A stretch of 64,000 nt of DNA, taken from NCBI RefSeq assembly GCF_963921235.1, contig NC_086097.1:52702001-52766000 (forward strand), given 5' to 3'. Shown here piece after piece: positions 10,756-63,513 of this stretch (position 1 is its first letter; each line of letters begins with the position of its first letter). Under the pieces are notes generated by a model that made no database searches, was not told where the DNA came from, and was given only the letters and a program-made list of their open reading frames with translations. The stretch comes from Mobula hypostoma. Taxonomy: Eukaryota. The position numbers were made by a program, and so were the translations under genes.

Positions 10756-11056
10756 ACATTGACCATGAGTATTTTTCATCCCGAAATCGATTAATCAATC
10801 AATAAGTTGAAAGGGTAGTGAATGCTAAAGAGGTTTTAGATTCTATCTGATCCATTATTTTATGTTTTAAGTTCTTATGAATATAATTCAGTTTGGTTAC
10901 AGATTGGCAATCATTCCTCATGCACTTAGAGACTGTCATTATTCAGTTTGCATGGAACGTCAAGCAACATGAGATAAGATCGGAAATCAAAATTGAAATT
11001 ACTGGAAATATTTAGCGGGCCAAGCAACATCTGCAGAAAAACAAACAAAGCTAATG

Positions 11057-11540
11057 CTCCATTCACCAGAAAAAGCAGGATCTCCCGGTGGCCACCCATT
11101 TCAATTCTACTTCCCATTCCCATCCAGATATGTCAATCCATGGCCTCCTCTATTGCTGTGATGAGGCCACACTCAAGTTGGAGGAGCAATACCTTTTATT
11201 CCATTTGGGTAGCCTCCAACCTGATGGCATGAACATTGACTTCTCAAACTTCTGGTGATCACCACCCCCCACCCCCGCCTTCATCATTCCCCATTCATGT
11301 TTCCCTCTCTCACCTTATCTCTTCACCTGCCTATTTCTCCCCTCTGGTGCTCCTCCTCCTTCTCTTTCTTTCATGGTTCTCTGACTTCTCATCTTTTTTT
11401 CCAGTCCTGATGAAGGGTCTCAACCTGAAATATTGACAGTTTACTCTTTTCCATAGCTGCTGCCTGGCCTGCTGAGTTCCTCCAGCACTTTGTGTATTTT
11501 GCTTTGGATTTACAGCATCTGCAGATTTACTCCTGTCTGT
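11057..11540 (+). mobile_element. PLE 3' fragment (end of GIY-YIG plus tail with degenerate HHR at 11403-11438)
   Basis: Homologous to 35095-35682. Confidence 0.8.
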
Positions 11541-13329
11541 GACACTTCAGATTGATAACTTTTTGTCAAAACTTATAATGCCACAGGACAACCCGTTTAG
11601 GAGGCAAATTTGACTGAAGGGTTCATTGACCTGAAATATTGGCTCTCTTTCTTTCTCTAAAGATAGTATCTGACCTGATGAGTCTATCCAGCATTTTCTG
11701 TGTTGACTTTGGATTCCCAGAAGTATTGTTCTTTGGTCTCACAAGTTTTTTTTCTGTTTTCTAAGCCATCTGTCTCTTTTTCATAGCAAAAAGATTTCTA
11801 TTATGAATCATCTGAAATATACAATAAGCTGCATCTTTCTGTTATATTTATTAGAGGACTATGAGCCTAAACATAGACTGGAAAATTGGCGCAATCTTGG
11901 GCAGACTAGTGGGAGAATAAATTCTAGGCTTGTCATCTGTAAGTGTTCCAGTACTTAGTTTAGAAATAGAATATCATCCAAAGTTACCATTTAGAGCTCA
12001 GTAAACTTCTATGCAGCTTGGAATGCTTGATACAGATATAGCCCACTTTCTCTTGAATTCTGGGAAGCCATAACTGGGAGCACAAAGGAAGGTACTGCAT
12101 CAATCCAAAAGCAAAATGTGATTGGTGTTGGCAGTTCAAAATCACACAGAAAATATGCTGGGAATTCCTGGGAGGTCAGGCACGGTGTCTGAGACACAAA
12201 CACTGTTAATATTTCAGATCATAGACCTTTCGTCTGAACCACAGGAGTGAGGTAAGTGGTAAAAGTGAATTGTGGATGTGTTGTGGGGGAAGGGTGGAAC
12301 AGAGGAGGAGGACTGACATCAAAAGAGGCTCAGTGCTTCTTTATGAGACACTGTTGACCCACGGGAAACCTAAGCCAACATTTAATGTTTACCTTCTTAG
12401 TTCTTGTAGCCCTTGAACTATTTCTGTTGAGGTTTGGCCAATTAGGAAGCACTAATTTCCTGCTTAGGCCTTCTTATCAGTCTTTGCTTATGTTGTTTAT
12501 GTATAGTTCTTCATAAATTCTTCTGTGCTTCTTTATTTTTCTGCATATGCCTGTGAGAAAATGGATCTCAAGTTAGTATGTATGGTAATATATAATAATT
12601 TGTTAATGAATTTTACTTTGAATTGCTTTGATTTTGACTACCAATGAATTCCTGGCCATAAGCTGAAAGAGGTCATTGCTTTCATATTTACTGCCAAGAG
12701 AAGCAAAGTAAAATTGAGGATGTAAATTATTTCATTCTTAGGCACGTACTACTGGAATCAAATTAATCAAAATTTGGCTCCTTAACAGATTATACTGTAG
12801 CATTGTGGGGACTGTTTTCTTTCACCTTGGACACTGTGAGGCTGGAAATTACACATACATAGCTTATGACATGACAGGAAAAAATACTGAATAAAGTTCC
12901 TTATTCTTCATCTTTACACATTTTCCCTTTGATCTGATGTTCCTGGCAGAAGCCAGGCCTCACTTATTCCAAACGTTAGAATATATGTGGCCAGAGATGC
13001 AAGCCAAACAACTTGTGAGCTTGTTCTACCATTTCGTGATTGATCCTTCACTTCACTTACTGCTCAATTTTTCATCAGAAAATCTCCACTTTATCTGTTT
13101 CTACATCCAACCTCCATTCACTCCACCTTGTTCCACCTGACCAGCATCCCGCTCCTAAACTAGTTCCACCAATCACCTGCCAGGTCCTGCCTCATCCTCC
13201 CCCTTCACTTTGGCTAGCTTCCCTGTAAATTCTCATTCTTGGTGCAGAGTCTCAACCTGAAGTGTTGATGCCCTCTTCCTCCACAGACGCTGCATGACCC
13301 ATTGTGTTCCTCTAACAGTTTGCTTTATG

Positions 13330-26935: not shown

Positions 26936-27669
26936 TTGTCTCTCATTTCCCTATGCAGTCCCTGATTAGATAAAGAATTAATGCATTCTCTGTGCTTTTC
27001 TCACATCTCTAATCCTGCATTCATTAATGCATATCCAAACTCAAAACATGAACTTAACAGTCTGAAAGCCACAAATTACCATACAATAATGAAATTTCAT
27101 CCATGTTAATAGCTTTTTGCTCCCAGCGTCAAACTGTGCTGTAATCAAGTTGAGTTAGTAATGGAGCAATCTGTTGTTCCATAATATGAAAGATGATTGT
27201 TATGACAATGTGTCTGAGAGATTGGATCTACCATATGGCTCAGGATCAGATGTTTCTGTGAGCTGCTTTCTTCTAATCAACCCGCTCCAGAAACTGCCTC
27301 TTGCTTTTCTGAAGCGGTGTGGTCCTGGACTTCTGCCTGTAAATCATGGTCAAAAATATAATTTTGCCCCAGAACATTAGGCGGGTTGTTTTTGGAAATA
27401 TTGCTGGCAGAGCATTTCTGGAATTTGGCGATTGCTGAGCGGTCTCTATAGCATAAAAACTAGTTAAACTGGTTAGAAGTGGTTCTGAAGTGCCTCCAAC
27501 ATGGAATGTTAGCTCCAGCTCTTTTTTCACAGCTGCTGACTGCCTCCAGTATTTTATGTTTTTATTTTAGCTAAACTGACATTTATTTTCAATGTGTAAA
27601 AGAGAAACATATGCATTAATATCACCATTAGATGGTGTATTGATGGAACTGATTATCAATAGTTAACTG

Positions 27670-27829
27670 GCCAGACAACATCTATGGTAAAGAGAGGTCC
27701 TGATGAGGGGTCTTGGCCCGAAACCTCGAATGTTTACTCTTTTCCACAGATGCTGCCTGGTCTGTTGAGTTCCTATGGCATTTTGTGTGTGTTGCTTTGG
27801 ATTTCCAGCATCTGTAGATTTTCTCTTGT
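27670..27829 (+). mobile_element. PLE terminal mini-insertion with a short inverted 5' piece and degenerate HHR
   Basis: 17-bp TSD TTATCAATAGTTAACTG at 27653-27669 and 27830-27846; CTGATGA...GAAA at 27700-27723. Confidence 0.85.
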
Positions 27830-27879
27830 TTATCAATAGTTAACTGTAGGATAACCAATATTAGGCTAATGTGCACTTA

Positions 27880-28889: not shown

Positions 28890-29320
28890 ACTCAGATAAA
28901 ATCTGCTATGGGAAATGGAGGAAGAAGTTGGTGACATTTCATGTCAAAACCCTGCAATATGACCAAGATTGGAGAGGCGAGATAACCAGTGTAAAGAGGA
29001 AAGGCAGTGGGTTGAGATAGGTGGACTGGAAATGGGTGAAGGATGATAGAATAGATGGAGCCAGGTTGGAGAGGAGAAGGGATGGTGTTGGGAGACAAAG
29101 GCAGGTGGATAGATGGGGGCAGGCAAAAGAAAGGCAGATTGAACCAGGTAGTTGGAAGGTGAGAGTGGAGATAGCTAGGACAGTGATAAGCAGGAATACA
29201 AGGTTACCAGTGCTCGAATCTGATATGTAAAGAAGGGGAAAACCAATAGCAGGAAGGTGAAGGGGATATGGAGCAAGAACCACATGGGGGAGGAGGGATC
29301 TGTGGTTAAATGTGTGTATA
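28890..29320 (-). mobile_element. Old PLE 3' tail
   Basis: Purine-rich tract, 'gttaccagtgctcgaatctgata' (end of endonuclease) and degenerate HHR remnant at ~28932-28963. Confidence 0.5.
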
Positions 29321-32171
29321 CAATCAGGACAGGGAGGGCGGGGTATGGGTGGAAGGAAAGAGGAAGATCAGAAGTGGGGAGGGGGGGAGAGATGAGTAAA
29401 CACTGTCCGAGATATGCCTCTGAGATAAAATATGGAATTGAATAGAGCAGTGACAATGAACTTCATACACAAATTCATAGCTAGGTATCACACCTGGGAA
29501 GAGAGCATAGAAACTAGAAAGTAGCTGCTTCACTCAAGGTTAATTTTGACACCCATAGCAGTGCTTCTGTTATTTTTTAAGCTTTTCTCATCTCTTTTTT
29601 CATGTGCAGAATCAGTAACCAATGCTGTAAGCAAGTTATTGGCCTTGAAATCATGTGTGCTTGCAAATTAACGTGCTGGGTTTAGGTACAGGCCAGACAT
29701 TCTCAATGCAAGCAACAAGATAATCATCTACAAATTTAGCAGCAGGAACCATGTAAAAGGCCATGTTCTTTGGTTGCTGCTACTAGCTTTGCAGATAACC
29801 TTAAACGTTTCTGTATCTTGCCTGAGGAAATTCTCTTCATGATCATAACCCACATTGCCCACAACTTGCTTCGCTCATGGAGACTGGAATATACTCAGCC
29901 ATGAAGAGAAATTGTTATTCACCCCTGGTGCTCTGAGTGGTGTGACATTTAGCACTGACCACCAATTGGGGGACCCTAAAGTAAAACAAAATCGCTGTTA
30001 TCTGTCTATAGACATTACAGCTCAGAATTAGATTCAAGAGCTTTATCACTGACATTAGTTGTGAAATTCGTTGTTTTCTGGCAAGCAGGTACAGCGCAAT
30101 TGGTGATAAGACCCACTGGAAAGTGAATTTGAATTTTAATAAGCACTTCTTGGTTAACTAGAGCAGTTCTTAAAAAAAGACTGCCGTGTGGCTGAAGGAG
30201 ATTTATGTATTCAGAGATGTATTCATACACTACAGCTCCAAGCCCACAATCATTCGCATTGATCCATTCCCATCTCATAAATGACCCCTTGTCAGACTCA
30301 TAAATATACCACTGTGGCCCTGGACATTCGTCATAATGAAATCTTGGAATGACATTGTTTTTCAGTGTAAGTCACAGTTCACTCAGGCAGGGTCATCTGT
30401 CAAAACAGTAATTTCTGGACCTCTAATGACTCTATTTGTTGACTTTGAGTGATTACTCAGAACTAAAATCATAGATCATAAATTAGACAATCTTGCATCA
30501 GTTTCTGTTGAAAAATACCATCCACAGTATAGATGATGTCATTGTGATGTTGTGGAATTCACGCTCTCTCAGCCGTGGTGAAATGCCAAAGCAAACTCGA
30601 TGGGCCAAATGACCTTATTCTGCTCCTATATCTTATGGCCTTATGGCTTAAGCACCTTTGCACTGCAGTGTTTGCATAGAGAACTCTGATATTACCTGCG
30701 GGGCTTTTTATCAGGTTGAAGATATTTCATTGGTTACTGAGCCAAGGGCTACATTCACTTCCTACCCCATTGCTGGTGCATCTGGTACTGCCCCATCCAT
30801 TCTGATGCCTCATCCAGTGCTTTCCCCCTTGAGTATTCATCATTTCCTTTCAGAAGTCATTACTGAGTCTGCTTCAACCACTCTGGTGTTAGTCATCTTA
30901 AAATCTATTAATGACATTATCAACCTTACACCCACTGAAATTTCTTTTTAGTTACTTAATTTGATTTGAATGCCCTGCCTCTGCGCATCAGTCTCTACTG
31001 ATAACTTTGTTTTCAGAGAATCACATGTATATGAATGCTGTGGTTAGAATTTAATTTGCAACAGAAACTTGAAATTGATTTTTAACCATACTGCAGAAGA
31101 CAACTATATTATTAAGATGTATCTCTGTGTGTCATGGAGAAAGCTTTAACTTCTTGGTTTTCCCAGAACAGGGATCTTCACTTGCACAACCCAATACAAC
31201 AAGAAAGAGTTTGGGAATAATACTCCTTTGTTACTGCCTTTGTCATTGAGTATCAATCTAGACCTATTAGCATGGCTTTAATTGTTCATATCAAGATATA
31301 TATAATTTACAAGATTAGATTTATCATGCCATGGGTGCATCTTAAAACCTCACTCAGGTTAATCACAGATGGTTTTCATTTCCTTTCATAGTGACGGAAG
31401 CAAACTTTGAACTCTCTCAGCTTTTAAAAACATATGTATGTAAATAGATTGTGATTGCAAACCTCAAAATAAGACTTAATACTGTTTAAAAGAAGTTTTA
31501 CCCAATTAAATATGCTTGCATTAGGACTTTCAATAAAAAGGATGCCATCATCTGAAAGGCTGTCATTAAAACCTTGTTTCATTATTGAGCAAAACTTCCA
31601 AAGACTTTTTGCATCAAAATTATATGAACAAACAAATCTATGACTGCTGGTGTCCCACAACCCCTGACTGAATTGTGGTCTGTCTTTTAATGTTAAACAA
31701 GAAGCCCAATCCCTGAGGGAAAAAAAGAGTAATTCAACAACAATGAATTTCTGACCGTACTCTTTCAAATCCATTAGCTAAGACTTTGGACTCAGTTCCA
31801 ACCAGACATATCTGACTCCAGTTCAGGATGAGATGGAAATGGGTCTGGACAGGAAATTGCTTCCAATCTCTTCCCACATCACTGTTCAGGATACTCTAAG
31901 TTCTCCCTGTAGAAGTAAGCAATCAAATATTTCCAATATGAAATGGTCTCAAATATAGTGGGATAGCTACAGGCTCTGTTTATCCCTTTCTCTGTCTGAA
32001 GACAATCACAGCCTGGCATAGTAGGAGTACCCAGCAGTGCAACTTCAGAAAATGAATTATACTTTTCACAGGCATAGTGCCATTGGACCATAATTCCAAT
32101 TTCTTTTGTATCCATGCTCCAAAGTGTTATTTTCCTTACTTGCTAATTGGGAAATTAAAGGGATTTGAAAT

Positions 32172-32505
32172 AACACACATAAAAGTTGCTGATGAACGCA
32201 GCAGGCCAGGCAGCATCTCTAGGAAGAGGTACCGTCGACGTTTTGGGCTAAGACCCTGCGTCAGGACTAACTAAAAGAAGAGTTAGTAAGAGATTTGAAA
32301 GTGGGATCTGATTTTGGATCTCCCCCTCCGCCTCCCACTTTCAAATCTCTTACAAGCTCTTCTTTCAGTTACTCCTGACGAAGGGTCTCAGCCTGAAGTG
32401 TCGGCTGTACCTCTTCCTAGAAATGCTGCCTGGCCTGCTGTGTTTCACCAGCAACTTTTATGTGTGTTGCTTGAAATTCCAGCACCTGTAGATTTCCTCG
32501 TGTTT
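32172..32505. mobile_element. Fold-back PLE terminal mini-element (minus tail plus plus tail)
   Basis: Arms 32172-~32306 and ~32308-32505 are reverse complements; 12-bp TSD GGGATTTGAAAT at 32160-32171 and 32506-32517; mutated HHR in each arm. Confidence 0.9.
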
Positions 32506-33164: not shown

Positions 33165-33764
33165 CATACATCAAAGTTGCTGGTGAACGCAGCAGGCCAG
33201 GCAGCATCTATAGGAAGAGGCGCAGTCGACGTTTCAGGCCGAGACCCTTCGTCAGGACTAACTGAAGGAAGAGTGAGTAAGGGATTTGAAAGCTGGAGGG
33301 GGAGGGGGAGATGCAAAATGATAGGAGAAGACAGGAGGGGGAGGGATAGAGCCGAGAGCTGGACAGGTGATAGGCAGATGGGGATACGAGAGGATCATGG
33401 GACAGGAGGTCCGGGAAGAAAGACGGGGGGGGGGGTGACCCAGAGGATGGGCAAGAGGTATATTCAGAGGGACAGAGGGAGAAAAAGGAGAGTGAGAGAA
33501 AGAATGTGTGCATTAAAAAGAGTAACAGATGGGGTACGAGGGGGAGGTGGGGCCTAGCGGAAGTTAGAGAAGTCAATGTTCATGCCATCAGGTTGGAGGC
33601 TACCCAGACGGAATATAAGGTGTTGTTCCTCCAACCTGAGTGTGGCTTCATCTTTACAGTAGAGGAGGCCGTGGATAGACATGTCAGAATGGGAATGGGA
33701 TGTGGAATTAAAATGTGTGGCCACTGGGAGATCCTGCTTTCTCTGGCGGACAGAGTGTAGAGCA
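33165..33764 (-). mobile_element. 5'-truncated PLE (end of GIY-YIG plus HHR tail)
   Basis: 13-bp TSD AAGCATATGGCAT at 33152-33164 and 33765-33777; reverse complement of 35080-35682. Confidence 0.9.
33224..33259 (-). ncRNA. Minimal type I hammerhead ribozyme, intact core
   Basis: Minus: AGTC CTGACGA AGG gtctcgg CCT GAAA C GTC GACT; predicted cleavage after GUC. Confidence 0.8.
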
Positions 33765-34355
33765 AAGCATATGGCATGCCTTGAGATAGTTTGAATTCAA
33801 GCAACAGTCATTTTCTGAAATACTTCAATACTGTTTGACAAGCTGTCACGTGCCAAACTGAAAGTCTACCTACTGCCCCTCAATCTTCCATCACATTTCA
33901 TTCGAAGACAATGAGGACGGAGAACACAGAATATCATTGACACAGAAAGCTAAAGTCGTAGGTAGCCTAAAATTTAGTTATGCTTGTACAATTAGCACAG
34001 TTATTCTGCATAGTAGGCGCCATGTGCATTTGACTTCCATGAGAAGCCTGATTCTTCATACAGAAGCCCCCTTGGATTAGTGAACTATGGAGAATGGCAA
34101 CATTCACTTAGCTCGGTTCTGACCCAGTACGTGAAGGGCTCCGAGCCAGGAGTATATTCACCAATACTGAATCCTCCTGATCATCTGTTGGAATGGAGAG
34201 ATGGATCACTCAGAGTGAAGCTTTTAGGCTTAACTTGCTAGATTCTGCTTCAGTTCAAAAACAGATTAGGAAATAGGGATAAAAGTAGAAAAATCTTTAA
34301 TCTCAGTACTGAAAGTGAACAAACATTTCCCATAAGCAGAATGTTTTGTACACAC

Positions 34356-35682
34356 AAGGAAATCTGCAGATGCTGGAATTTCAAGCAACACACATAAAAG
34401 TTGCTGGTGAATGCCTCGAGTGGTAGTGAGGGAGGACTATTCCTCTTCTCACCCTGTCTCTTGCAAAAATGCCATCCCCTTCTCACAATTCCTCCATCTC
34501 CGCCGCATCTGGTCTCAGGATGAGGCTTTTCATTCCAGGATGAGGGAGATGTCCTCCTTTTTTACAGAAAGGGGCTTCCCTTCCTCCACCATCAACTCTG
34601 CTCTCAAACACATCTCCCCCATTTCACGCACATCTGCTCTCACTCCATCTTCCCGCTACCCCACCAGGAATAGGGTTCCCCTTGTCCTCACCTACCACCC
34701 CACTAGCCTCTGGGTCCAACATATAATTCTCCATAACTTCTGCCACCTCCAATGGGATCCCACCACTAAGCACATCTTTCCATCTCCCCTCACCCGCTTT
34801 CCGCAGGGATCGCTCCCTACGCAACTCCCTTGTCCATTAGTCTCCCCCATCCCTCCCTACTGATCTCCCTCCTGGCACTTATCCTTGTAAGCGTAACAAG
34901 TGCTACACATGCCCTTACACTTCCTCCCTCACTACCATTCAGGGCCCCAGACAGTCCTTCCAGGTGAGGCGACACTTCACCTGTGAGTCGGCTGGGGTGA
35001 TATACTGCGTCCGGTGCTCCCGATGCGGCCCTCTATATATTGGCGAGACCCAACGCAGACTGGGAGATCGTTTCGCTGAATACCTACGCTCTGTCCGCCA
35101 GAGAAAGCAGGATCTCCCAGTGGCCACACATTTTAATTCCATGTCCCATTCCCATTCTGATATGTCTATCCATGGCCTCCTCTACTGTAAAGATGAAGCC
35201 ACACTCAGGTTGAAGGAACAACACTTTATATTCCGTCTGGGTAGCCTCCAACCTGATGGCATAAGCATTGACTTCTCTAACTTCCGCTAATGCCCCACCT
35301 CCCCCTCGTACCCCATCCGTTATTTATTTATTTATATTCACACATTCTTTTTCTCTCTCTCCTTCTTCTCCCTCTGTCCCTCTCACTATACCCCTTGCCC
35401 ATCCTCTGGGCTTCCCCCGCCTTTCTTTCTCCCTCAACCTACTGTCCCATGATCCTCTCATATCCCTTTTGCCAATCAACTGTCCAGCTCTTGGCTCCAT
35501 CCCTCCCCCTCCTGTCTTCTCCTATCATTTCAGATATCCCCCTCCCCCTCCCCCTCCCACTTTCAACTTTCTTACTAGCTCTTCTTTCAGTTAGTCCTGA
35601 CAAAGGGTCTTGGCCCGAAACGTCAACTGTACCTCTTCCTAGAGATGCTGCCTGGCCTGTTGCATTCACCAGTAACTTTTAA
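34356..35682 (+). mobile_element. Penelope-like retroelement (probably Neptune-type) 3' half with an inverted terminal piece at its 5' end
   Basis: RT thumb 'SSSHPVSCKNAIPFSQFLHLRRI'; Cys linker 'CKRNKCYTC'; GIY-YIG; inverted tail 34356-34414; 13-bp TSD GTTTTGTACACAC at 34343-34355 and 35683-35695; HHR with G8>A at 35593-35628. Confidence 0.92.
34964..35290 (+). pseudogene. PLE GIY-YIG endonuclease domain
   Basis: 'GVIYCVRCSRCGPLYIGETQRRLGDRFAE...VATHFN...RLKEQHFIFRLGSLQPDG'. Confidence 0.9.
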
Positions 35683-36304
35683 GTTTTGTACACACTGTTG
35701 ATTCCAGATATCCCCTTTTTCTTGGCTGTTTTCCTCCTACTGCAACAAAAAATTGAATGAACTCTGTTTCTCATTTAGTTGGGATATTCATTCCTGAGCT
35801 AAAAGCCATCCCAACATCATCATATAGTGTAGATTAGATAAGTGAATAATAAATACTTTACATACTGCTTTGTTTTATTGTGTGTTATCTTTTGCTTCTA
35901 TGCTTCAGTAGTTTGTAACTAAATGATATAACATGAGTTTGCTTTCATTGCAGAGTGATCTCTTTGATAACTCATAAAAGTGTTGTATGTCAGAAGCTGA
36001 TGCTATGGCTAAGCCACCCACACTCACCACTGGAGTAAAGAAAATTGCAGACTAAGCTTTTGCAGATACCATAATATACATCAATTCACAGGTACTATTA
36101 GATGATGCAATGCTGCCTTGTTGACAGGTTAGAACTAGCAACGCTCACAAACTGTCTGAGAAACTGACTGTTGATCAAGCCACACCCTTGGAATTCTTGG
36201 CTCTCAGAAACTTAGAAGTATTGAGAAAAGGTTAGGGCAACTACATTAGAAAAATAAAAACGAATTACTCGTAAATACTTTTTAAACGATTAGATACTTT
36301 AAAG

Positions 36305-38079: not shown

Positions 38080-38550
38080 GTGTTCTTTGCCACATCTGCC
38101 TGAGTTTGACTCTTCTCCATCTCCCTTGCATGAGTCTTGGGTCGTGGGCAAGATTTGATCTGTGCAGTCTGTGGATTGGACTCATTCTTAGAGGACGCTG
38201 CAGTTCAAGTTATATTTGTTTCCGATTTCTGATTACTCCTATTTTTATTGTTATTTTATGTGATTTTGATTGGGGCAGTTTGGCTCTGCTGCCTGCAGTG
38301 AGCAAATGGCCCAGCACTATATGGAATTAATCTAACTGAATATTCCCAGACTGTTACAAGGATTTTGCGGTTTGATGTTTAATCCTCTGTGTGTTATTCA
38401 CTCGTTTTTTGCCGTTTGCATGATTTGTTGTTTTTTTGTGCATTGGGTGTTCGATGTTTACTTTGACGGGGTTCAGTTTCTTTGTTTCATGGCTGCCTTT
38501 GTACTGCACACGTACTTTAATAATAAATTAACTTTGAAGCTTTGATTCTG
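38080..38550 (+). mobile_element. Non-autonomous LINE-tail repeat (Rex1-like 3' end)
   Basis: T-rich tail ending 'taataaattaactttgaagctttga'; similar tails at ~12480-12630 and 48060-48242. Confidence 0.45.
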
Positions 38551-38994
38551 AAATTCAGCTCATTTGTCCTTATTTGAACCAGGGCAGCCCTGTGGCATGG
38601 AGCCAAGTGGATCTGGTGAAGACTGTGTCAACCATCCATAAGCAGGGTATTGGAAAATTCTGCCAATTGAAGGTAATATTCATTACTTTGCCAATGATTG
38701 AGAGAAGGCCTGATAGGATAATAATTGGCTGAATTGGATTTATTTTGCAGTTTTCAGACAGAACACGTGATCAGTTTTCCACTGTTGGGTAGCTGCCAGC
38801 CCTGTAACCGGAGTAGAAGAGATTGGCTTATTTTGGAATTTCTATTGCTGCTGTAAGCTTAACCTTATACACTAGGATGACCAAGAGAGATGGGGGAGTG
38901 TTTACAGTACTGCTTGGAGTCGGTTCACTGGGCAATATTCAGGAATTCAACTTCAAATCTGAATGAATGCACCACTGTTGTTACTGATTTCATC

Positions 38995-40848: not shown

Positions 40849-41624
40849 CCACCCCCGTGCTTAACAGTTGGAGAGGGGTACTTTTCATGAAATTCTGCAC
40901 CCTTTTTTCTCCAAACATACCTTTGCTCATTGCAGCCAAAAAGTTCTATTCAAAAGGTTCAAAGGAACATCTAAACATGCCTGATGCATTTTGGAAACAA
41001 GTCCTGTGGACTGATGAAGTTAAAATAGAACTTTTTAAATACCAGCAAATTCTGGAAGCAAACATCACACTGTCTGTAAAAAAGATGAAAAGAGGATGGC
41101 TTCTACAACAGGATAATGATCCTAACCACACCTCAAAATCCACAATGGACTACCTCAAGAGTTGCAAGCCGAAGGTTTTGCCATGGCCCTCACAGACCCT
41201 CGACCTAAACATCATCGAGAATCTGTGGATAGACCTTAAAAGAGCAGTGCATACAAGACGACTTAAGAATCTCACAGAACTAGAAGCCTTTTGCAAGGAA
41301 GAATGGGTGAAAATCCCCCAAACAAGAACTGAAAGACTCTTAGCTGGCTACAAAAAGCATTTACAAGCTGTGATGTTTGCCAAAGGGGATGTTACTAAGT
41401 ACTGCCATGCAGGGTGCCCAAACTTTTGCTTCGGGCCCTTTTCCTTTTTTGTCATTTTGAAACTGTAAAAGATGGAAATGAAAAAGTTTTCTTACTTAAA
41501 ATATTCAAGAAATGTGTCATCTTTAACTTTATGCCTTTTGGAAATCAGTTCATCTTTTACTGGCATAGCTATTCACAGTAACAGAAATTTTGACTGGGGG
41601 TGCCCAAACTTTTGCATACCACTG
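40849..41624 (+). mobile_element. Rearranged Tc1 (DD34E) transposon, right half, with IR/DR-type terminal repeat
   Basis: 'VLWTDE', 'QQDNDPNH', 'WPSQTLDLNIIENLW'; DR GGGTGCCCAAACTTTTGC at ~41412 and ~41598; ends CACTG followed by TA (41625-41626). Confidence 0.9.
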
Positions 41625-44600: not shown

Positions 44601-45325
44601 AAAGGGACTTAGGAGTCTGCGTGTAGTATTCCCTGAGATGTTAATTTGCAGGTTGATTCAGTAGTGAGGAAGGCAAATGTGATGTTGGCATTCATATTGA
44701 AGGGACTAAAATATAAAAGCAAGAATGTAATATTGAGGCTTTATAAAGCACTGGTCAGGCCCCACGTGGAGTATTCTGCGCTGTTTTTGACCCCTTAGAT
44801 AGGATTTGCTGATACTGGAGAGGATTCAAAGCAGTTTCATAAAACTGATTCTGGGTTTAAAAGGCTTGTCATATGAAGAGTGTTTGATGGCTCTGTGCCT
44901 CTGCTCACCGAAATTCAGAAGAATAAGCGATTACCTCATTGAAACTATCAAATGTTGAAAGGCCTTCATAGAATGGATGTGGAGATGATGTTTCCCATGG
45001 TGGTGGAGTCTAAGACCAGACTCAGAACAGCCTCAGAACAGAGGGACATACTTTTAAAACGGAGATGAGGAGGAATTTCTTTATCCAATGAGTGGCGAAT
45101 CTGTGGAATTCATTGCCACAGGCAGCTGTGGAGGCCAAGTCATTGGGAATACTTAAGGCAGAGATTGACAGTTTCATGACTGGTCAGAGCATGAAGGGAT
45201 ACAGGGAGAAGGCAGGAAAATGGAGCTGATATGAAAAATGGATCCGCCATGATGAAATGGCAGAGCAGACTCGATGGGTTAATGGCCTAATTCTGCTGTT
45301 GTCTCTTGTGATCTTATAGTCTTAT
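41625..45325 (+). mobile_element. Decayed CR1 LINE (ORF1 esterase through 3' UTR)
   Basis: 'VVHIGINDIG', 'NYRPVSLTSVVGKILE', 'LLFTLYVNDLDDGIDGFVAKF'; collinear with 2780-8952. Confidence 0.92.
41981..42258 (-). mobile_element. Short CR1 3' fragment nested in CR1
   Basis: Minus ORF 'FTQRMVAVWNELPAEVVEAG'; (accatata)n tail; host 'gggaccaatatc|cttg' is split. Confidence 0.85.
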
Positions 45326-45627
45326 ATTGATTCAAGGGGTGTGGACTTTGCAGGCTGAGCTGGTGTTTCCCTAGTTGCTTGCTATGTTTCTACCTTGATT
45401 ACCTTGGTAATGTGGTATGCAGGGTAATGTTCCATGCATTTCCAGCATTTACATTCATAGTCCATAAAAAGAGGTACAACTCAATTTAGTTCTGGTTGAA
45501 ATGCAATATTAGTGGGTTCATTACAGAATAGAATTCTATAGATAAATGAAGAGATAGAAAAAAAATAACATAGTGATTATTTTTCCATACATTTTTATTT
45601 CTAATATTTTTAAAGCAATATACAGTA

Positions 45628-46515
45628 CACTCAGTGACCATGTTACTTATACCTCTTGTACCTAATAAAGTGCTGTTTGTGGTCTTCTGTTGCTGTAGGC
45701 TATCCTCTTCAAGGTTTCACATGTTCTGCATTCAGCAATGCACTTCTGCACAGCACCATTGTAACGTGTTGTTATTTGAGTTACTATCACCTTCCTGTTA
45801 GCTTGATCCAGTCTGGCCATTCTCCTCTGACCTCTCTCATTAACAAGGCATTTTTGCTCACAGAATTGCTACTCACTAGATGATTTCTTTTAGTTTTCCG
45901 CAGCATTTGCTGTAAACTCTAGTGACTGCTGTGTGTGAAAATCCTGGGAGATCAACAGTTTCTGAGATACTCAAACCACCCTATCTGGTACCAACAATGA
46001 TTTCACAGACAAAGTCTGTGAGGTATTGATTGTGTGGATACCCAGAGGCTTTTCCCCAGGGCTGAAATGGCTAACATAAGGGGGGCATATTTTAAGGTGC
46101 TTGGAAGTGGGTACCGAGGGGATGTCAGGGGTAAGTTATTCACACAGAGAGTGGTAGGAGTATGGAATGCACTGCCGCTGATGATGGATACAATAGTATA
46201 TTTTAAGACACTCTTAGACAGGTGCATGGAGCTTAGAAAAATAGAGGGCTATGCAGTAGAGTAATTCTAGACAGTTTCTAGAGTAGGTTACATGGTCAGC
46301 ACAACATTGTGGGCCAAAGGGTCTGTAATGTGCTGCAGATTTCCCTTCACTTCGATCACATTTCTTCACTGTTCTGATGTTTGATCTGAATAACAACCGG
46401 CCCTCTTGACCATGTATGAATGCATTTATGCATTGAGTTGCTGCCACATGATTGGCTGGTCAGAAATTTGCACTTTAATCAGGTGCACAGGTACACTAAA
46501 AGTATTGAATCATGT
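45628..46515. mobile_element. Tc1-derived non-autonomous element with a nested CR1 3' fragment (~46010-46340, +)
   Basis: TA then 'cactcagtgacca...gtacctaataaagtg' left end; degenerate 'caggtacactaaaagt' right end; CR1 'KLFTQRVVGVWNALP'. Confidence 0.6.
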
Positions 46516-46993
46516 AAAATCATGAATTATGGAACAATTGGCACTTAGTCAACAGGAATTGAGAGCTAATGGTTCTGAAAAGAAGTAAGATACATCCATA
46601 TTGTTTCCACAGGAATGGGGAAAGATGAATTCTTCTAGTCAAGAATCAAGTCATTAATTTACTTCTGTACCAGGTTGAGTAGAAAATAAAAATTTATTCT
46701 CTAATATGGGAAACTCTGCTACATGGAAGACTGAAACAAATTGTTACATATTTTATGAGAAAATTGGATATTTTTTCACAGAGGACAGCTTACAAGGCTT
46801 AGGAAAGAATTGGGTTATTTTTAGAATGCGTTCATAGCACAATGATGTTAGAAATGTGTGCAGTTTTATTGGCTGAAAATGACATAATTGGTATCTTTGT
46901 AATCCTTTAATCTTTGTTTTACACACACTGGTTGCAAATTATGCCAGTAAATTTCATTGCAAAGCTATAATTTTACATTAAAGAATACTAAAT

Positions 46994-47195
46994 AGCTAGC
47001 TCTTGGCTCCATCCCTCCCCCTCCGGTCTTCTCCTATCATTTTGGATCTCCCCTCCCCCTCCCACTTTCAAATCTCTTACTAGCTCTTCTTTCAGTTAGT
47101 CCTGATGAAGGGTCTCAGCCCGAAACGTCGACTGTACCTCTTCCTAGAGATGCTACCTGGCCTGCTGCGTCCACCAGCAACTTTGATGTGTGTTG
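46994..47195 (+). mobile_element. PLE terminal mini-insertion with intact HHR
   Basis: Near-identical to 35506-35682; possible TSD CTAAAT at 46988-46993 and 47196-47201. Confidence 0.85.
47098..47133 (+). ncRNA. Minimal type I hammerhead ribozyme, intact core
   Basis: AGTC CTGATGA a GGG tctcag CCC GAAA C GTC GACT; predicted cleavage after C47129. Confidence 0.8.
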
Positions 47196-47619
47196 CTAAA
47201 TGTTAAATATCACTTTTAACTTTCTACACACTTTCACTTATCATTTGTCTCTGAGCCACAAAGCAAAGATAAAAGATTTGTTTACTGAACGGAAACTCCA
47301 GTCAGAAGACAATTTACCACTAAGTAGTCTGGGAAGGCATGTCAATACATCTTCAAAATTTATGCTGTAAGTCACCAAACCTGTCAAGAAATAACCAAGC
47401 TTGATCATTGTCATGCAATGGGGGGGTTATATGGGAGGCAGGGTTTGAGGGTCGGCACAACAATGTGGGCTGAAGGGCCTGTACTGCGCTGTACTATTCT
47501 ATGTTCTATTTTCTGTGTTCAATGATAAACAGTACCTTTTGCACATTTTGCTCAGATATGATCACTGCAATCAAGAGCCTGTAAATTCCCTTTTGAACTG
47601 CCTGTACGGCCTGGCATTT

Positions 47620-48242
47620 TTGCAGTGTGAACTGAGGTCTCACAGGTGCAGAACGGTTGTGGAAGTGGTGTGTACAGGCTGAGTTGAGCTATTAGGGCCC
47701 GGGGCCAAGAGCAGGGCATGAGCCAATACTTGGCCATTGCTGGAGTGCACTTGAAGGCAATTCGATGCGGCAGAGTTGAGGCGAGGTGAGCAGAGGCGAG
47801 ACAGAACTGAGGTGGCAGGGCCCAGGGCCTGGCCTGAGAGTAGGAAAAGACTTGAAATTTGACTAATTTAAGCGCTGGGGTGAATTCAAAATGTCAGGTA
47901 CATGCCGAATCGAGTCCAGCCCTGAGCATATCAAAACAACTTCCAAAAGTGAAGAACAACCTGAGGCTTGGCCAATTTAAATGTCAGGCCAGATTGAAAA
48001 GATTATGGTGTCAAGGCCGGAGGCAAAGGATGGGCTGGTATTCACGTCACCGTTTTGCAAGCTATTTGCTTACTTTTACTGTTTGCACGACTTGTGTGTT
48101 TTTTTCTGCATATTTGGTGTTTGACAGCCTTTTTTAATGGATTCTATTGGATTTCTTTGTTTTGAAGCTGCCTGTAAGGAGACCAAATCTTAAGGTTGTA
48201 TATAGTAGACAGACTTTGACAATGTGTACTTTGAACTTTGAA
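47620..48242 (+). mobile_element. Non-autonomous repeat with GC-rich head and Rex1-like tail
   Basis: GC-rich 5' part; tail 'gctgcctgtaaggagacc...tactttgaactttga'. Confidence 0.45.
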
Positions 48243-48916: not shown

Positions 48917-50517
48917 TGTATTGTGTATTTAACATTTCAGTAATATCTGAGTAATATTGTAAATATATTTTTGATTAAGCATACTTTGTTGTTTACATAA
49001 ATTGTTATGGGTCATATGTAAAAGTATGTAAGTGACATACGCTATGATGCCACCATGTCATATGGCACACCTCACTAAAGTAAAAGCAAAGCGTACACAT
49101 TCTTCTAGGTTTCTGTATTTTCTCTTTCAGTTAGTTTTATGTTTTGGAGTTACAAAACATAACAGTGGCAATGAGAATGTTTTAAAATTAACCCAAGATG
49201 ACTACCTACCTGTTGAAGTGCAGAGAGATGCTCGAGATTTTAAAAAGCACATTTTTAACTACATATCAGGAGGAAACGGCAATGGACAAAGCAGTGTGAG
49301 GTGGCTTTCAAAACCATAAAGGAAGTGACGTGTTGAAACACTGTATTCACAAACTATAATCCATATCGTCCAGTGACGCTTGCCTTGCACTATGATAGAG
49401 GTGCAGCCATCTCACATGTTTGAGTGATAGATGTGAATGCTCCTTTGATTCACGTTCCCTTACCACTGCAGAGAAAAGTTATACACAGATTGACAGAGAG
49501 GCTTTGAATCTGGTTTGGGGTATAAAATACTTCAACCAGTATCTGTGTGGGAGAAAGTTTATTCTCATTACTGATCATCAACCACTAGTGTCCATTTTCA
49601 ATCCACAGAAAGATGTTCCACTAACCGCAGCAGTATAAATACCAAGATTGGCTCCCTTTCTATGAAATTACAGTTACAAGATTGAATTAAAGAGGGTGAC
49701 TGATCATGGAAATACTCTTGAAAAAGGAAATACCTGAAAATTTTACACAACAGTGGATATTCCTCAACATATCCTCCTTAATGCAAATTTAGAGTCTCCC
49801 TATTACAATAGAGATGAGCCAAAGCGAACCAAGAAAATACCTCACCTTGTCTCAGATCGACATGGCAACCATAAATGGCTGGAATGCGCAGCAGAAATCC
49901 CAATTCTCCCATTTTAACCAGTGGAGGATGAACTTGCCCTTAAACAGGGGTTGCCTTTTGTGGGGATTGAGAGTAGTTGTACCATTTAAGCTGAGAGCTA
50001 AAGTGTTGGAGCTACATACCAGTCATCTAGACGTGGTCAAAGTGAAAACATTGGCTCAAAGCTTTGTCTGGTGGCTTGGGATAGATCAGCAGATCGAGCA
50101 GAAGAAAGATATCCAGATCTATCAGAACCACTTCCAGAGTCAGCTTCTACAACCACCATGGAGGAGGCCCAAGAATCTAAGATTCTTCACAGCCACAAGT
50201 CTCACCTGCCAAGGAGAGTAACCCTCCCTTGTCAGGAAAGGCATTATCCCACAAGTGTAAGAAATCCTCAACAGCAATTAAATCTTTAAGCTTGAAAGGG
50301 ACAATTTAAAATTGACTGCTGTGAATGTCTATGTAGTAGTTATTTTGTATAGTATGCTGTATATATAGTTGATCTGCATTCAAAATTGAGTTGCAGTTTA
50401 TAGCTAAGCAGCAAGGAATGTGTGCGTTCAATATTTCAGTAACATTGAGTAATACTGTAAATATATTGTTTGATTAAGCATTCTTTGTGATTTACATAAT
50501 TTGTTATGGGTTACATC
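48917..50517 (+). mobile_element. Internally deleted Gypsy LTR retrotransposon
   Basis: 5' LTR ~48917-49164 ending AACA; degenerate PBS TGGCAATGAGAATG; RNase H 'AEKSYTQIDREAL..GRKFILITDHQPL'; integrase Zn region 'LHTSHL..VWWLGIDQQIE'; purine tract 50406-50418; partial 3' LTR from 50419. Confidence 0.88.
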
Positions 50518-56107: not shown

Positions 56108-56500
56108 AGTGGACCATGGGAGAAAGAGAAGGAGGAGGGGCACCAGAGGGAGGTGATGGCAGGTGAGGAGAAGAGAAGAAGAGGGAAGCCAGAATTACAT
56201 GCTCCACGCCTATCAGTTTCCTTTGTCTTCAGACCTTTGCCTCTTCCACCTATCACCTCCCAGCTTCTCACTTCATTCTCCCTCCCGCCCACCTGGCTTC
56301 ACCTACCACCTGTCAGCTTGTGTTCTTTCCCTTCCCCCCACCTTCTTATCCTGGTTTCTTCACCCTTCCTTTCAAGTCCTGATGAAGGATCTCAGCCCAA
56401 AATGTAGACTATATAATCATTTCCATAGATGCTACCTGACCAGCTGAATTCCTCAAGCATTTTGTTTGTGTTGCTCTGGATCTGCAGAATCTCTTGTGTT
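56108..56500. mobile_element. PLE tail with inverted 5' piece and degenerate HHR (56375-56410)
   Basis: Purine-rich minus piece 56108-56195, then plus tail 'agtcctgatgaaggatctcagcccaaaatgtagact'. Confidence 0.7.
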
Positions 56501-60580: not shown

Positions 60581-60707
60581 TTTAAATACTGGATGTACAG
60601 GAGTTGTGAAGGACACTTAGAATTTGCTTTGATTTTATCACTGCAAAAGGGCAAAATCAAGAAGATTTGAAAAATCTTGAATTTGAAAAAAGATTTAATG
60701 TCTGAGA

Positions 60708-60898
60708 CACGAGGAATTCTGCAGATGCTGGAAATTCAAGCAACACACATCAAATTTGCTGGTGAACGCAGCAGGCCAGGCAGCATCTCTAGGAAGAGGT
60801 ACAGTCGACGTTTCGGGCCGAGACCCTTCATCAGGACTAACTGAAGGGTCTCGGCCTGAAACGTAGACTGTACCTCTTCCTAGAGATGCTGTCTGGCC
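60708..60898. mobile_element. Fold-back PLE terminal mini-element
   Basis: 13-bp TSD TTAATGTCTGAGA at 60695-60707 and 60899-60911; minus tail 60708-60845, plus partial tail 60842-60898. Confidence 0.92.
60803..60838 (-). ncRNA. Minimal type I hammerhead ribozyme, intact core
   Basis: Minus: AGTC CTGATGA a GGG tctcgg CCC GAAA C GTC GACT. Confidence 0.8.
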
Positions 60899-63416
60899 TT
60901 AATGTCTGAGAAAAAGTTTTGGAAGACTTTTACTATATCAATAGTAGGCAACTTTTTAGTGGGAAGAGCCAGAGGAAACTTCTGACAACCATTCAGGAGA
61001 ATCACACTGTATTTTGTCCAAACCATTCAGAAAAATATTTAAGTCCTAAGTGTGCCGTTCTGAGATTCCTGAGAACATTGGGTGAGCTGTCAGACAGGAC
61101 AAAGACTGACCTCACAGTACAGCTGGGATAAGAAATGATTGGATTCATCATGTATCATTTTGGCTCCACAGTACCAGAATGATACCATGGATAAGGGGTA
61201 TAGTGATATGGGGAGACAAGGGATGAAGAACTTGTCATTCTTACAGCAGAGAATTGTAACACAAGATTTGATAAAGATGTCAAAATTAATGTAGATAAGG
61301 TTATAATGAGAAAGACTTCTTGTGGTAGAAAGATTGATAACCAGGCAATAAGATTTAAATCAAATATGTTTCAATTGTAACTTTTCCCAGTTCCGATGAA
61401 AGGTCATCAACTTGAAATATTAATTCTGTTTCTTTGTTCAAAGCTGCTGCCTGAACTGCTTTCTATTTCCAGCATGTACTATTTATATCACAGATTTCCA
61501 GCATGGTTTTACTTCTCAAACACAAAACGGGAGGTGCTAGAGTCAAAGAGTCATAGAGAGGTACAATGCAGAAACAGGCCCTTCAGCCCATCTAGTCCAT
61601 GCTGAAACCATTTAAACTACTTACTCCCACCGACCTGCACTGGGACCATAGCTCTCCCTACCCAAATATCCACGTACTTATCCAAACTTCTCTTAAATGT
61701 TGAGCTCACATGCACCAACTGTGCTGGCAGCTCATTCCACACTCTCACAACGCTCTGAGTGAAGATGTTTTCCCTCATGTTCCCCTTAAACTTTTCAGTT
61801 TTCACCCTTAACCCACAATCTCTGGTTGTAGTCCCACACAACCTCGTGGGAAAAAGCCTGCTTGCATTTACCCTATCTGTATCCCTCATAATTCTGTTCA
61901 AATCTCCTCTCGGTCTTCTACGTTCTAAAGAATTCTGTCCTAGCCTATTCAATCTTATAACTCAGGTCCTTCATACCCAGCAATATCCTTGTAAATTTTC
62001 TCTGTACCCTTTCAAACTTGTTTACATCTTTTCTGTAGGAGGGTAACCAAATCTGCACACAGTACTCCAACATCTTATACAACTTCAACATATCACCCCA
62101 TCTCCTGTACTCAATACATTTATTTATGAAGGCCAATGTGCCAAAAGCTTTTTTATGACCCTGTCTACCTGTGACGCCACTTTCAATGAATTACGTACAT
62201 GTTTTCCCAGATCCCTTTGTTCTACCACACTCCTCAGTGCCCTACCATTCACTGTGTAGGACCTGGCTTGTTGGTTCTAGCAAGGTGCAACACCTCGCAC
62301 TTGTCTGCATTAAATTCCATCTGCCAGTTTTCCGCCCATTTTTCCAGCTGATGCAGATCCCTCTGCAAACCACGATAGCCTTCCTCACTATCCACTACAC
62401 CCCCAATCTTGGTGCCATCCGCAAATTTGCTGATCCAGTTAACCCCATTATCATCCAGGTATTGATATAGATGACAAACGACAAAGCACTGATTCCTGTG
62501 GCACACCACTAGTCACAGGCCTCTGGTCAGAGAGGCAACCCTCTACTACCACTCTCTGGCTTGTCCAACAAAACAAATGTCTAATCCAATTTACTACTTC
62601 ATCCTAAAAGTCGAGCAACCATCTTGACCAGCCTACCACATGGGACCTTTTCAAATGATTGCTGAAGTCCATGACGACACCATCCACTTCATCTCCTTTC
62701 CTGGTAACTTCCTCAAAGAACTCTAGAAGATTGGTTAGACATGGTCTACCAAGCACAAAGCCATGCTGACTATCCTTAATCAGTCCATGTTTATCCAAAT
62801 ACTTGATATCCTGTCGCTAAGAATATATTCCAATAATTTTCCCACAACTGATGTCAAACTCACTGGCCTATAGCTTCCAGGTTTCTGTTTTAGGTCTTTT
62901 TTTAACAGCAGATCAACATTGGTCATACCCCAATCCTCTGGTACTTCTCCTATCACTAAGGATGATTTAAATATCTCTGCTAAGGATCCAGCAATTTCTG
63001 CACTTGCCTCCCGTAGGGTCTGAAGGAAACTTTGCCAGACCCTGGGAATTTATCTGCCCTGATTTGCCTCAGGGTAGTAAGCACCTCCTCCTCTATAGTC
63101 TGTACAGGGTAGATGAAATTGATGCTTTGCCTCATTTCTATAGACTCTGAGTCCAATTCCTAAGTAAATACAGATACAAAGAATTCAATTAAGATCTCCC
63201 CCATCTGTTTTGGTTCCACACATCGATTACCATTCTGGTCTTCCAGAGGACTAATTATGTCCCTTGAATACTTTTGCACTGAACATATCTGTAGAATCCA
63301 TTAGGATTCTCCTTCATCTTCTCTGCTAGAGTGACTTCATGCTTTATTTTAGCCTTCCTGATTTCTTTCTTAAGAGTTCTCTTGTATTTCTTTTAATCCA
63401 TAAGCACCTGATTTGC

Positions 63417-63510
63417 AACACACATCAAAGTTGCTGGTGAACGCAGCAGGCCAAGCAGCATCTATAGGAAGAGGCGCAGTCGACGTTTCAGGCCGAGACC
63501 CTTCGTCAGG
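63417..63510 (-). mobile_element. 94-bp PLE terminal insertion (HHR plus 3' trailer only)
   Basis: 11-bp TSD ACCTGATTTGC at 63406-63416 and 63511-63521; nearly identical to 33167-33258. Confidence 0.92.
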
Positions 63511-63513
63511 ACC
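63478..63513 (-). ncRNA. Minimal type I hammerhead ribozyme, intact core
   Basis: Minus: GGTC CTGACGA AGG gtctcgg CCT GAAA C GTC GACT. Confidence 0.75.

What the first reader, a model, noticed from the sequence alone, without database searches (positions are those of the whole stretch)
47098..47133. Dispersed family of minimal hammerhead ribozymes in Penelope-like element termini
Seen: the motif AGTC-CTGA(T/C)GA-3-bp stem II-GAAAC-GTC-GACT is intact at 33224-33259(-), 47098-47133(+), 60803-60838(-) and 63478-63513(-). It is mutated at 11403, 27697, 32233, 32371, 35593 and 56375, with older relics near 9620, 11615, 12205, 13240, 28935, 32870, 59100 and 61393. Helix III is reduced to the palindrome ACGT. 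Established: PLEs carry minimal type I HHRs whose palindromic helix III favours dimeric cleavage. Inference: about 18 copies in 64 kb would imply a very large number genome-wide, and intact copies could cleave host transcripts in cis or as dimers.
Basis: partly seen in the sequence, partly recalled or inferred. Interest (0 to 1): 0.75.

Follow-up and report, generated by a model that had tools for sequence, protein, structure and literature searches.

The report
Ray Penelope copies carrying minimal hammerheads
These are the ends of broken copies of a very abundant Penelope-type jumping gene, each carrying a tiny predicted self-cutting RNA motif of a kind already published for such elements; the copies here are decaying and are unlikely to cut host RNAs, so the finding is real but mostly ordinary.

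Summary
Real, and of a known kind. The motif sits at 47098-47133(+), predicted cut 47129/47130, and fits the published minimal PLE hammerhead (PMC4209133). A strict descriptor finds 5 copies in the window and none in 60 simulations. All 18 listed places were located. The PLE link is shown: copy 35593 lies 303 nt behind an RT-thumb, zinc-linker and GIY-YIG remnant (Neptune-type) whose nearest relatives are from rays. Arms are often head-to-head, and 6 of 9 insertions have 11-17 bp target duplications. Copy number is likely about 10^5 (71,701 contigs laid). Cutting of host RNA is not supported. Core CpG letters are changed in 6-13%, like a flank CpG (9%). Of the four 'intact' copies, one is locked in a fold-back and two have G10.1-U11.1. 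The upstream pyrimidine tract is predicted to mask the core about 70-fold. Eleven of 13 arms run across the cut site, none starts there, and 4 start at helix I. This scan has noted the family many times elsewhere in this genome. Open lead: the RNA's 5' end, made by splicing or by the start site, may gate the ribozyme.

The parts
46998..47197 (+). 5'-truncated PLE end (pLTR stub, short 3' end without tail) that holds the focal hammerhead
   Evidence: blastn to other arms; contig depth rises at 46998 and falls after 47197
47098..47133 (+). minimal type I hammerhead with intact core and G10.1-C11.1; predicted cut 47129/47130
47078..47099 (+). branch-point-like heptamer, pyrimidine tract and two AG dinucleotides (3' splice-site-like, judged by eye); predicted to pair with C3-A6 and G8-U10.4 and mask the core
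   Evidence: sequence; folds; splicing not shown
34411..35290 (+). 5'-truncated, frameshifted PLE ORF: RT thumb remnant, C-x4-C-x2-C linker, GIY-YIG endonuclease, stop at 35290
35291..35684 (+). 3' UTR/pLTR of that copy, with a broken hammerhead at 35593-35628 (G8A, G1.1A)
34352..34411 (-). inverted short arm with the 33-35 nt tail; the whole insertion 34352-35684 lies in a 13-bp target duplication
33165..33760 (-). PLE stub (endonuclease end plus pLTR); hammerhead 33224-33259 has an intact core but G10.1-U11.1; 13-bp target duplication
32160..32505 (.). head-to-head two-armed insertion; hammerheads 32233-32268(-) (A9C, G12A) and 32371-32406(+) (A15.1G, C15.2T); 12-bp target duplication
60707..60899 (.). 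fold-back insertion: core-intact hammerhead 60803-60838(-) fully paired with the second arm 60843-60899(+); 13-bp target duplication
63415..63512 (-). stub that begins at helix I; hammerhead 63478-63513 has an intact core and G10.1-U11.1; 11-bp target duplication
27665..27832 (.). second-subfamily insertion: short inverted arm plus a + arm that begins at helix I (hammerhead 27696-27731, G16.2C); 17-bp shared flank
11056..11545 (+). second-subfamily stub with endonuclease end; hammerhead 11403-11438 with ATAT palindrome still meets the descriptor
56240..56500 (+). second-subfamily stub; hammerhead 56375-56410 broken (G12A, C15.2T)
61383..61460 (+). example of the old relics (also 11615, 12200-12240(-), 13235, 32860, and weakly 9611, 28906-28987(-), 59100); several show U-A in place of C-G at pair 2.1/1.1

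Best explanation
The motif is the minimal hammerhead in the pseudo-LTR of a Neptune-type Penelope-like retrotransposon, likely of a ray, and the copies in this window are 5'-truncated insertion stubs that are likely dead and decaying neutrally. Shown: motif anatomy, position behind the RT/GIY-YIG remnant, head-to-head arms with a one-sided tail, target duplications, CpG-type change in the core. Inferred: in active tandem source elements two hammerheads pair through ACGU:ACGU, likely with help from the element's protein, and trim the element's own RNA; selection acts only there. Reverse transcription likely starts inside the RNA about 68 or about 102 nt downstream of the cut site, reads through an uncut or re-joined hammerhead, and usually stops early, often at the front edge of helix I. 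After insertion, methyl-CpG decay likely hits G8, G12, the helix III palindrome and C17/G1.1, and flanking sequence or the second arm is predicted to mask the survivors, so host RNA is rarely cut.
For: Descriptor 5 vs 0 and match to the published consensus. ORF remnant and its relatives. Arms, tails and target duplications of 11-17 bp in 6 of 9 insertions, as described for PLEs. Eleven of 13 arms cross the scissile bond and 0 of 13 start within 5 nt of it (offsets, read). In DNA run X1 six core CpG letters are changed in 6.3-13.1%, against 9.1% at a flank CpG; run X5, from another organism, agrees. Variation near 40% is confined to tolerated letters (position 7, 11.1, loop II), while their essential CpG partners G8 and G12 change in 6% and 13%, which fits selection in source elements only. 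In RNA-labelled runs broken cores are no more frequent than in DNA. Predicted share of the open hammerhead fold at 47098 falls from 0.02 to 0.0003 when 20 nt of native upstream sequence are added.
Against: No cleavage was tested. Covariation in 19 copies is not above the shuffle control (score 0.308, 49 of 500 shuffles as high). The depth figures come from assembled contigs, which the tool says give no copy number, start, strand or level. The RNA label of X13 and X17 is a guess. In 8 young arms the core is, if anything, a little less changed than the flank (CpG 3 of 32 vs 6 of 28, p=0.28; other sites 2 of 68 vs 35 of 772, p=0.76), which is too weak to exclude some selection on copies. Summed contig depth in the RNA-labelled runs, relative to DNA, is about 3-4-fold higher 25-60 nt downstream of the cut site than over the hammerhead; this is unexplained and could reflect cut or short RNAs.
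Confidence: 0.8

Rival explanations
1. Gated ribozyme: the pyrimidine tract in front of helix I is the end of a pLTR intron, or lies just upstream of the start site, and masks the core. Only an RNA whose 5' end or splice junction lies at helix I would fold an active hammerhead, and that short RNA would be the usual template for stub insertions. This can hold together with the best explanation.
For: Splice-acceptor-like sequence at 47078-47099, with a perfect branch-type heptamer in copy 32268 (consensus recalled). Masking of 2.6 kcal/mol at 47098 and about 5 kcal/mol at 33259. Four of 13 arms start within -7..+9 of helix I. In Drosophila virilis Penelope the intron end maps to helix I (PMC4209133). 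Earlier scan notes report the same clustering genome-wide (unchecked).
Against: Any U/C-rich tract pairs with GAAGGG: 12 of 200 composition shuffles and 5 of 200 random flanks mask as well. Loose ends before 47100 relative to 47098 are as frequent in DNA (461/1488) as in RNA-labelled runs (70/251, 38/104), so no splicing signal was seen. No upstream exon is joined to helix I in the two stubs that start there.
Confidence: 0.2
2. One reading: core-intact dispersed copies cut host pre-mRNAs in cis or as dimers at a biologically relevant rate.
For: About half of the depth keeps all six core CpG letters if changes are taken as independent (0.52), so intact cores are likely very many. Two core-intact minus-strand copies lie 2.7 kb apart (60803, 63478). 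A dimer fold is possible (-16.3 kcal/mol).
Against: The 60803 copy is fully paired in a fold-back (-128.5 kcal/mol). The active dimer lies above two monomer folds (2 x -10.1 for the bare motif) and above the best dimer (-25.4). Published monomers are inactive and dimers weak. In the anole element cleavage needed protein and no RNA-seq reads ended at the cut site. Intact cores are not depleted in RNA-labelled contigs. No host exon was identified in the window.
Confidence: 0.08
3. The motif no longer cuts even in source elements. It persists as a structural or protein-binding element of the pLTR, or as a passenger.
For: All 11 arms that include the site were copied from RNA that was continuous across it. 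Catalytic mutants did not affect insertion in vitro for the anole element. Naiad PLEs spread without hammerheads.
Against: Subfamily-level variation avoids G8, G12 and the palindrome. Pair 2.1/1.1 changes on both sides, C-G to U-A, in 4 old relics.
Confidence: 0.15

Closest known systems
Minimal hammerheads (min-HHR) in pLTRs of metazoan PLEs (Cervera and de la Pena 2014, PMC4209133; parts 1-3 of 4 of the text and supplement part 2 read)
   Same: CUGANGAH core with one extra base before 10.1, G10.1-C11.1, GAAA-C-G-U-C palindrome without loop 3, short helix I, U-rich upstream flank, mostly solo truncated copies, some close pairs on opposite strands.
   Different: No cartilaginous fish among the supplement files searched (file 1 could not be searched). 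Helix II is at the short end (4 pairs). Copy number is likely about 10^5, against about 4,000 (coelacanth) and 9,000 (Xenopus) there.
EN+ Penelope-like elements, Neptune/Nematis type (Craig et al. 2021, PMC8557442; Arkhipova et al. 2013, PMC3846280; passages read)
   Same: C-terminal GIY-YIG with CCHH, CX2-5CxxC linker, inverted 5'-truncated arm, 30-40 bp tail at one end only, target duplications.
   Different: Only stubs are present here. Clade placement rests on motifs, not on an RT tree. Target duplications (11-17 bp) are longer than the 8-10 bp in the rotifer examples read.
Poseidon element of Anolis carolinensis, PAc (Frangieh et al. 2024, PMC11167929; parts 1-2 of 4 read)
   Same: pLTR hammerhead; 3' ends fall in two classes separated by a tail, downstream of the cut site; uncut RNA appears to be the template.
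   Different: Different clade (has no linker finger). There the ORF starts in stem II; here the ORF start is not in the window.
Non-LTR retrozymes (PMC7229834, passages; bioRxiv 10.64898/2026.07.22.740005, parts 1-2 of 5 and passages)
   Same: Type I hammerhead, PLE-related, very high numbers possible (a section heading gives up to 120,000 in axolotl); reported in one chondrichthyan genome.
   Different: Those are tandem repeats, and in PMC7229834 they carry canonical, efficient hammerheads. These copies are dispersed or head-to-head and minimal (one search shows no tandem array at them).
Lunse, Weinberg and Breaker 2017 (PLE-associated small hammerheads cleave as dimers)
   Same: Short palindromic stem III and dimer cleavage, as cited in the review PMC6765202 (passages).
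   Different: The paper was not held, so I cannot say whether it lists ray or shark families.

Membership tests
Metazoan PLE min-HHR | Core CUGANGA ... GAAA ... UH in type I order | tested here: met
   47102-47129; 5 descriptor hits vs 0 in 60 simulations
Metazoan PLE min-HHR | One extra base between positions 9 and 10.1 | tested here: met
   A at 47109; feature named in PMC4209133
Metazoan PLE min-HHR | G10.1-C11.1 pair | tested here: met
   Met at 47098 and 60838; G-U in 33259 and 63513; T at 11.1 in 42% of X1 depth
Metazoan PLE min-HHR | Palindromic 15.2/16.2 with no or tiny loop 3 | tested here: met
   ACGT at 47125-47128; same as several rows of supplementary Fig. S3
Metazoan PLE min-HHR | Located in the pLTR of a PLE | tested here: met
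   Copy 35593 lies 303 nt behind the GIY-YIG stop; 46998-47204 aligns to that 3' region at 85%
Metazoan PLE min-HHR | Compensatory changes in helices I and II | tested here: inconclusive
   2 of 8 pairs show two-sided change; not above shuffles (49 of 500), above slid controls
Metazoan PLE min-HHR | Self-cleavage as dimer, not as monomer | not testable with these tools
   Only folding energies
EN+ PLE, Neptune/Nematis type | GIY-YIG endonuclease C-terminal to the RT | tested here: met
   Thumb remnant then endonuclease at 34411-35290; Pfam GIY-YIG E 0.005, below the curated cut-off; the sea-urchin relative P0008 has both RVT_1 and GIY-YIG, also below cut-off
EN+ PLE, Neptune/Nematis type | CX2-5CxxC linker finger | tested here: met
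   C-x4-C-x2-C in ORF 34841-35290; feature per PMC8557442
EN+ PLE, Neptune/Nematis type | CCHH motif in the endonuclease | tested here: met
   By eye: complete in close relatives; one His reads Tyr in this decayed copy
EN+ PLE, Neptune/Nematis type | Inverted 5' arm, one-sided 30-40 bp tail, target duplication | tested here: met
   4 two-armed insertions, each with the long end on one arm only; duplications in 6 of 9 insertions
EN+ PLE, Neptune/Nematis type | Partial-tandem full-length element (pLTR-ORF-pLTR) | not testable with these tools
   No genome held; no relatives in metagenome or viral contigs
Neptune clade proper | Placement on an RT tree | not tested
   No reference clade set was available; motif evidence only
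Non-LTR retrozyme | Head-to-tail tandem units each with a hammerhead | tested here: not met
   None of the 10 tandem arrays overlaps a hammerhead copy
Rfam hammerhead families | Score at a family's gathering threshold | tested here: not met
   0 hits in the window; no hammerhead family at E<=10 in 46900-47300

The most novel reading that the evidence does not exclude
The ray PLE hammerhead is a 5'-end-gated ribozyme. The pLTR's own splice-acceptor tract pairs with the catalytic core, so the roughly 10^5 genomic copies stay silent in host read-through RNA, and the ribozyme folds only in the element's RNA that starts or is spliced at helix I. That same RNA end would explain why so many insertions begin at helix I and none at the cut site.
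Probability: 0.2. Interest if true: 0.6.

Novelty: new member of a known kind. Interest (0 to 1): 0.27.

Why it matters
It extends the known PLE minimal hammerhead to a ray family of likely about 10^5 copies, roughly ten times the largest min-HHR counts in the defining paper, though similar to the axolotl retrozyme count. The role of PLE hammerheads is still open in print (PMC8557442, PMC11167929), and so many dated insertions are a good data set for it. They suggest that uncut RNA is what gets copied, and that selection on the core acts in source elements only. If the gating reading held, it would explain how a genome tolerates so many intact ribozyme cores.

Tried and rejected
Whole-genome count: no genome held. 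Rfam: no hammerhead hit. Related loci for a wider covariation test: none in metagenome contigs by DNA pattern or by protein alignment (23 pattern matches, none confirmed), none in viral contigs. Sequencing runs: no RNA holder listed on record; RNA labels are guesses. Contig data showed no place where many molecules begin or end, but contigs cannot show that. Host gene: 136 of 195 unmasked reading frames scanned against Pfam gave only retroelement domains. Candidate exon 38583-38672(+) had no match; candidate 34065-34238(+) had none either. The apparent RNA joint 38498-48225 was rejected as a splice: both ends lie in similar repeat-tail sequence and the letters between are not in the window. 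A conserved structure downstream of the cut site: no consensus pairs in 9 copies; 1 of 2 long arms folded better than shuffles (z -2.66 and 0.14). Retrozyme reading rejected (no tandem units). Chance rejected. Literature on chondrichthyan PLE hammerheads: searches found none that describes this family; Lunse 2017 could not be read and file 1 of the PMC4209133 supplement could not be searched, and bioRxiv supplements are closed; any of these may list it.

Full report
1. Observation. The motif is at 47098-47133(+) as stated. Read as a type I hammerhead it has helix I of 4 pairs, C3-A9 at 47102-47108, an unpaired A at 47109, helix II of 4 pairs (three G-C, one U-G) with a 4-base loop, G12-A15.1 at 47122-47125, the palindrome ACGT at 47125-47128, and C17 at 47129. 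A descriptor requiring the core, both helices and a 15.2/16.2 pair found 5 sites (C3 at 11407+, 47102+, 33255-, 60834-, 63509-) and none in 60 Markov simulations. Rfam has no model that scores this form.

2. What carries it. Two frames at 34411-34863 and 34841-35290 encode an RT-thumb remnant, a C-x4-C-x2-C linker and a GIY-YIG endonuclease (Pfam E 0.005, below cut-off). Eleven of 13 longer relatives found are from the rays Mobula and Hypanus... more exactly 10 of 13 (identity 74-97% over the matched part), and 3 are from a sea urchin (44-46%); the relatives hold the RT core. The host is therefore likely a myliobatiform ray (inference). The linker finger marks Neptune or Nematis and is absent from Penelope/Poseidon (PMC8557442, passages). 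Hammerhead copy 35593 lies 303 nt after the stop, and the focal stub 46998-47204 aligns to this region at 85%. The 13 recent arms form 9 insertions; 4 are head-to-head pairs with the long 3' end on one arm only; 6 of 9 have target duplications of 11, 12, 13, 13, 13 and 17 bp, and 3 of 9 showed none above 6 bp. This is the published PLE layout.

3. Abundance. In DNA run X1, 71,701 contigs were laid on the 361-base stretch at 80% likeness, nearly all on the 200-base stub, with summed depth of 6-7 million over the hammerhead against 13.6 on unique flank; run X5 of another organism gave 49,797. The tool warns that this is no copy number, and overlapping contigs inflate it. I take only the order, about 10^5 (inference). 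An earlier scan note gives roughly 100,000 (unchecked). The defining paper reports about 4,000 and 9,000 for coelacanth and Xenopus.

4. Are the copies under selection? The core holds CpG at 7/8, 11.1/12, 15.2/16.2 and 17/1.1. In X1 the changes are G8A 6.3%, G12A 13.1%, C15.2T 11.0%, G16.2A 12.0%, C17T 9.1% and G1.1A 9.9%, against 9.1% at the one flank CpG shown; X5 agrees within 1 point (52 further rows were not shown). Variation near 40% occurs only at tolerated letters: position 7, 11.1 (G-U wobble) and loop II. I read this as neutral methyl-CpG decay after insertion on top of source elements that kept the core (inference; the window's CpG observed/expected is 0.25). In 8 young arms of the window, core and flank do not differ significantly. 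Across 19 copies, pair 2.1/1.1 is U-A instead of C-G in 4 old relics, but the overall covariation score is not above shuffles, and some relics align poorly.

5. Could they cut host RNA? Of the four core-intact copies, 60803(-) is fully paired with its second arm, 33224 and 63478 have G10.1-U11.1, and only 47098 is canonical and free. Its predicted share of open hammerhead fold is 0.02 when the RNA starts at helix I and 0.0003 with 20 native upstream bases; for 33259 it is 8e-4 and 3e-7. The mask is the pyrimidine tract pairing with C3-A6 and G8-U10.4. It is only modestly special: 12 of 200 shuffles and 5 of 200 random flanks do as well. The active dimer scores -16.3 kcal/mol against -25.4 for the best dimer (the model has no tertiary terms). 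In print, a single min-HHR did not cleave and dimers were weak (PMC4209133), and the anole ribozyme cleaved only with the element's protein, with no RNA-seq reads ending at the site (PMC11167929). In the RNA-labelled runs X13 and X17 broken cores are not enriched (unchanged fraction 0.62 and 0.71 vs 0.52 in DNA); these are contigs with a guessed label, so this is weak. Against my reading, their depth relative to DNA is about 3-4-fold higher downstream of the cut site than over the hammerhead, which I cannot explain. No host exon was identified, so it is unknown whether the window lies in a gene.

6. Mechanism. With offset 0 at the first base of helix I and the cut between +31 and +32, arm 3' ends fall near +86 to +109 or +132 to +134, apart from two short second arms at about +65 and +69; the two main classes lie a 33-35 nt tail apart. 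This matches the two internal RT start sites shown for the anole element. Eleven of 13 arms cross the scissile bond, so their template was uncut or re-joined there. None starts at the cut; 4 start within -7..+9 of helix I (27697, 60843, 60845, 63511). Several earlier notes on this genome report this clustering and propose that the RNA begins there; I reuse that reading and checked it only on these 13 arms. The sequence just upstream looks like a 3' splice site (recalled consensus), and the D. virilis intron ends at helix I, but one search shows no excess of spliced-type loose ends in the RNA-labelled runs. I commit to an element-internal, likely protein-assisted dimer ribozyme whose dispersed copies are inert (0.8), with gating as an added possibility (0.2).

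7. Known or new. Every sequence feature of the published min-HHR consensus that I could test is met, except covariation, which is inconclusive; cleavage is untestable here. Searches found no paper on this ray family. One chondrichthyan genome is covered in a 2026 retrozyme preprint, and Lunse 2017 was not readable. Papers seen: PMC4209133 (parts 1-3 of 4, supplement search, supplement file 2 part 2), PMC11167929 (parts 1-2 of 4), bioRxiv 10.64898/2026.07.22.740005 (parts 1-2 of 5 and passages), and passages only of PMC8557442, PMC6765202, PMC6155905, PMC7229834, PMC10085705 and PMC3846280. Hammerhead numbering, the effects of core changes and the splice consensus are recalled knowledge. Verdict: new member of a known kind, interest 0.27.

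Noticed in passing
window 1271-1537 and 2042-2546 (+): Two older PLE ORF remnants (RT thumb, linker, start of endonuclease) with no hammerhead found behind them.
   Followed up: partly
window 16175-17740 (-): 521-aa open frame with RVT_1 (E 1e-32), likely a young CR1-type LINE with a short tandem duplication at 16206-16249.
   Followed up: no
window 14009-15424 and 19187-19600 (+): L1-like RT remnants, apparently split by the LINE at 15713-18039.
   Followed up: no
window 49399-50221 (+): LTR-retroelement remnant with RNase H and integrase zinc-binding pieces.
   Followed up: no
window 40779-41468 (+) and 36475-36975 (-): Tc1-like DDE transposase remnant and a Spin-doc-type zinc finger, likely of a hAT-related transposon.
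   Followed up: no
window 38583-38672 (+): 90-nt stretch with good acceptor and donor sites and an open frame; no protein match found.
   Followed up: partly
window 11403-11438 (+): Two CpG-type changes turned ACGT into ATAT, so the helix III palindrome and descriptor match are kept.
   Followed up: partly
proteins P0003, P0005, P0009: Ray gene models named mucin-2, DIPK1C and chitinase domain-containing protein 1 isoforms contain this PLE ORF; likely annotation artefacts or exonised repeats.
   Followed up: no
window 47141-47200, runs X13 and X17: Contig depth in RNA-labelled runs relative to DNA is about 3-4-fold higher here than over the hammerhead, and lowest over 47050-47075. Unexplained.
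   Followed up: partly
window 13235, 28906-28987(-), 32233-32268(-): Three copies read C at position 9 followed by the extra A; possibly a variant core and not decay.
   Followed up: no
window 6041-6929 and 7959-8059: Cluster of 31-68 bp tandem repeats, unrelated to the hammerhead copies.
   Followed up: no
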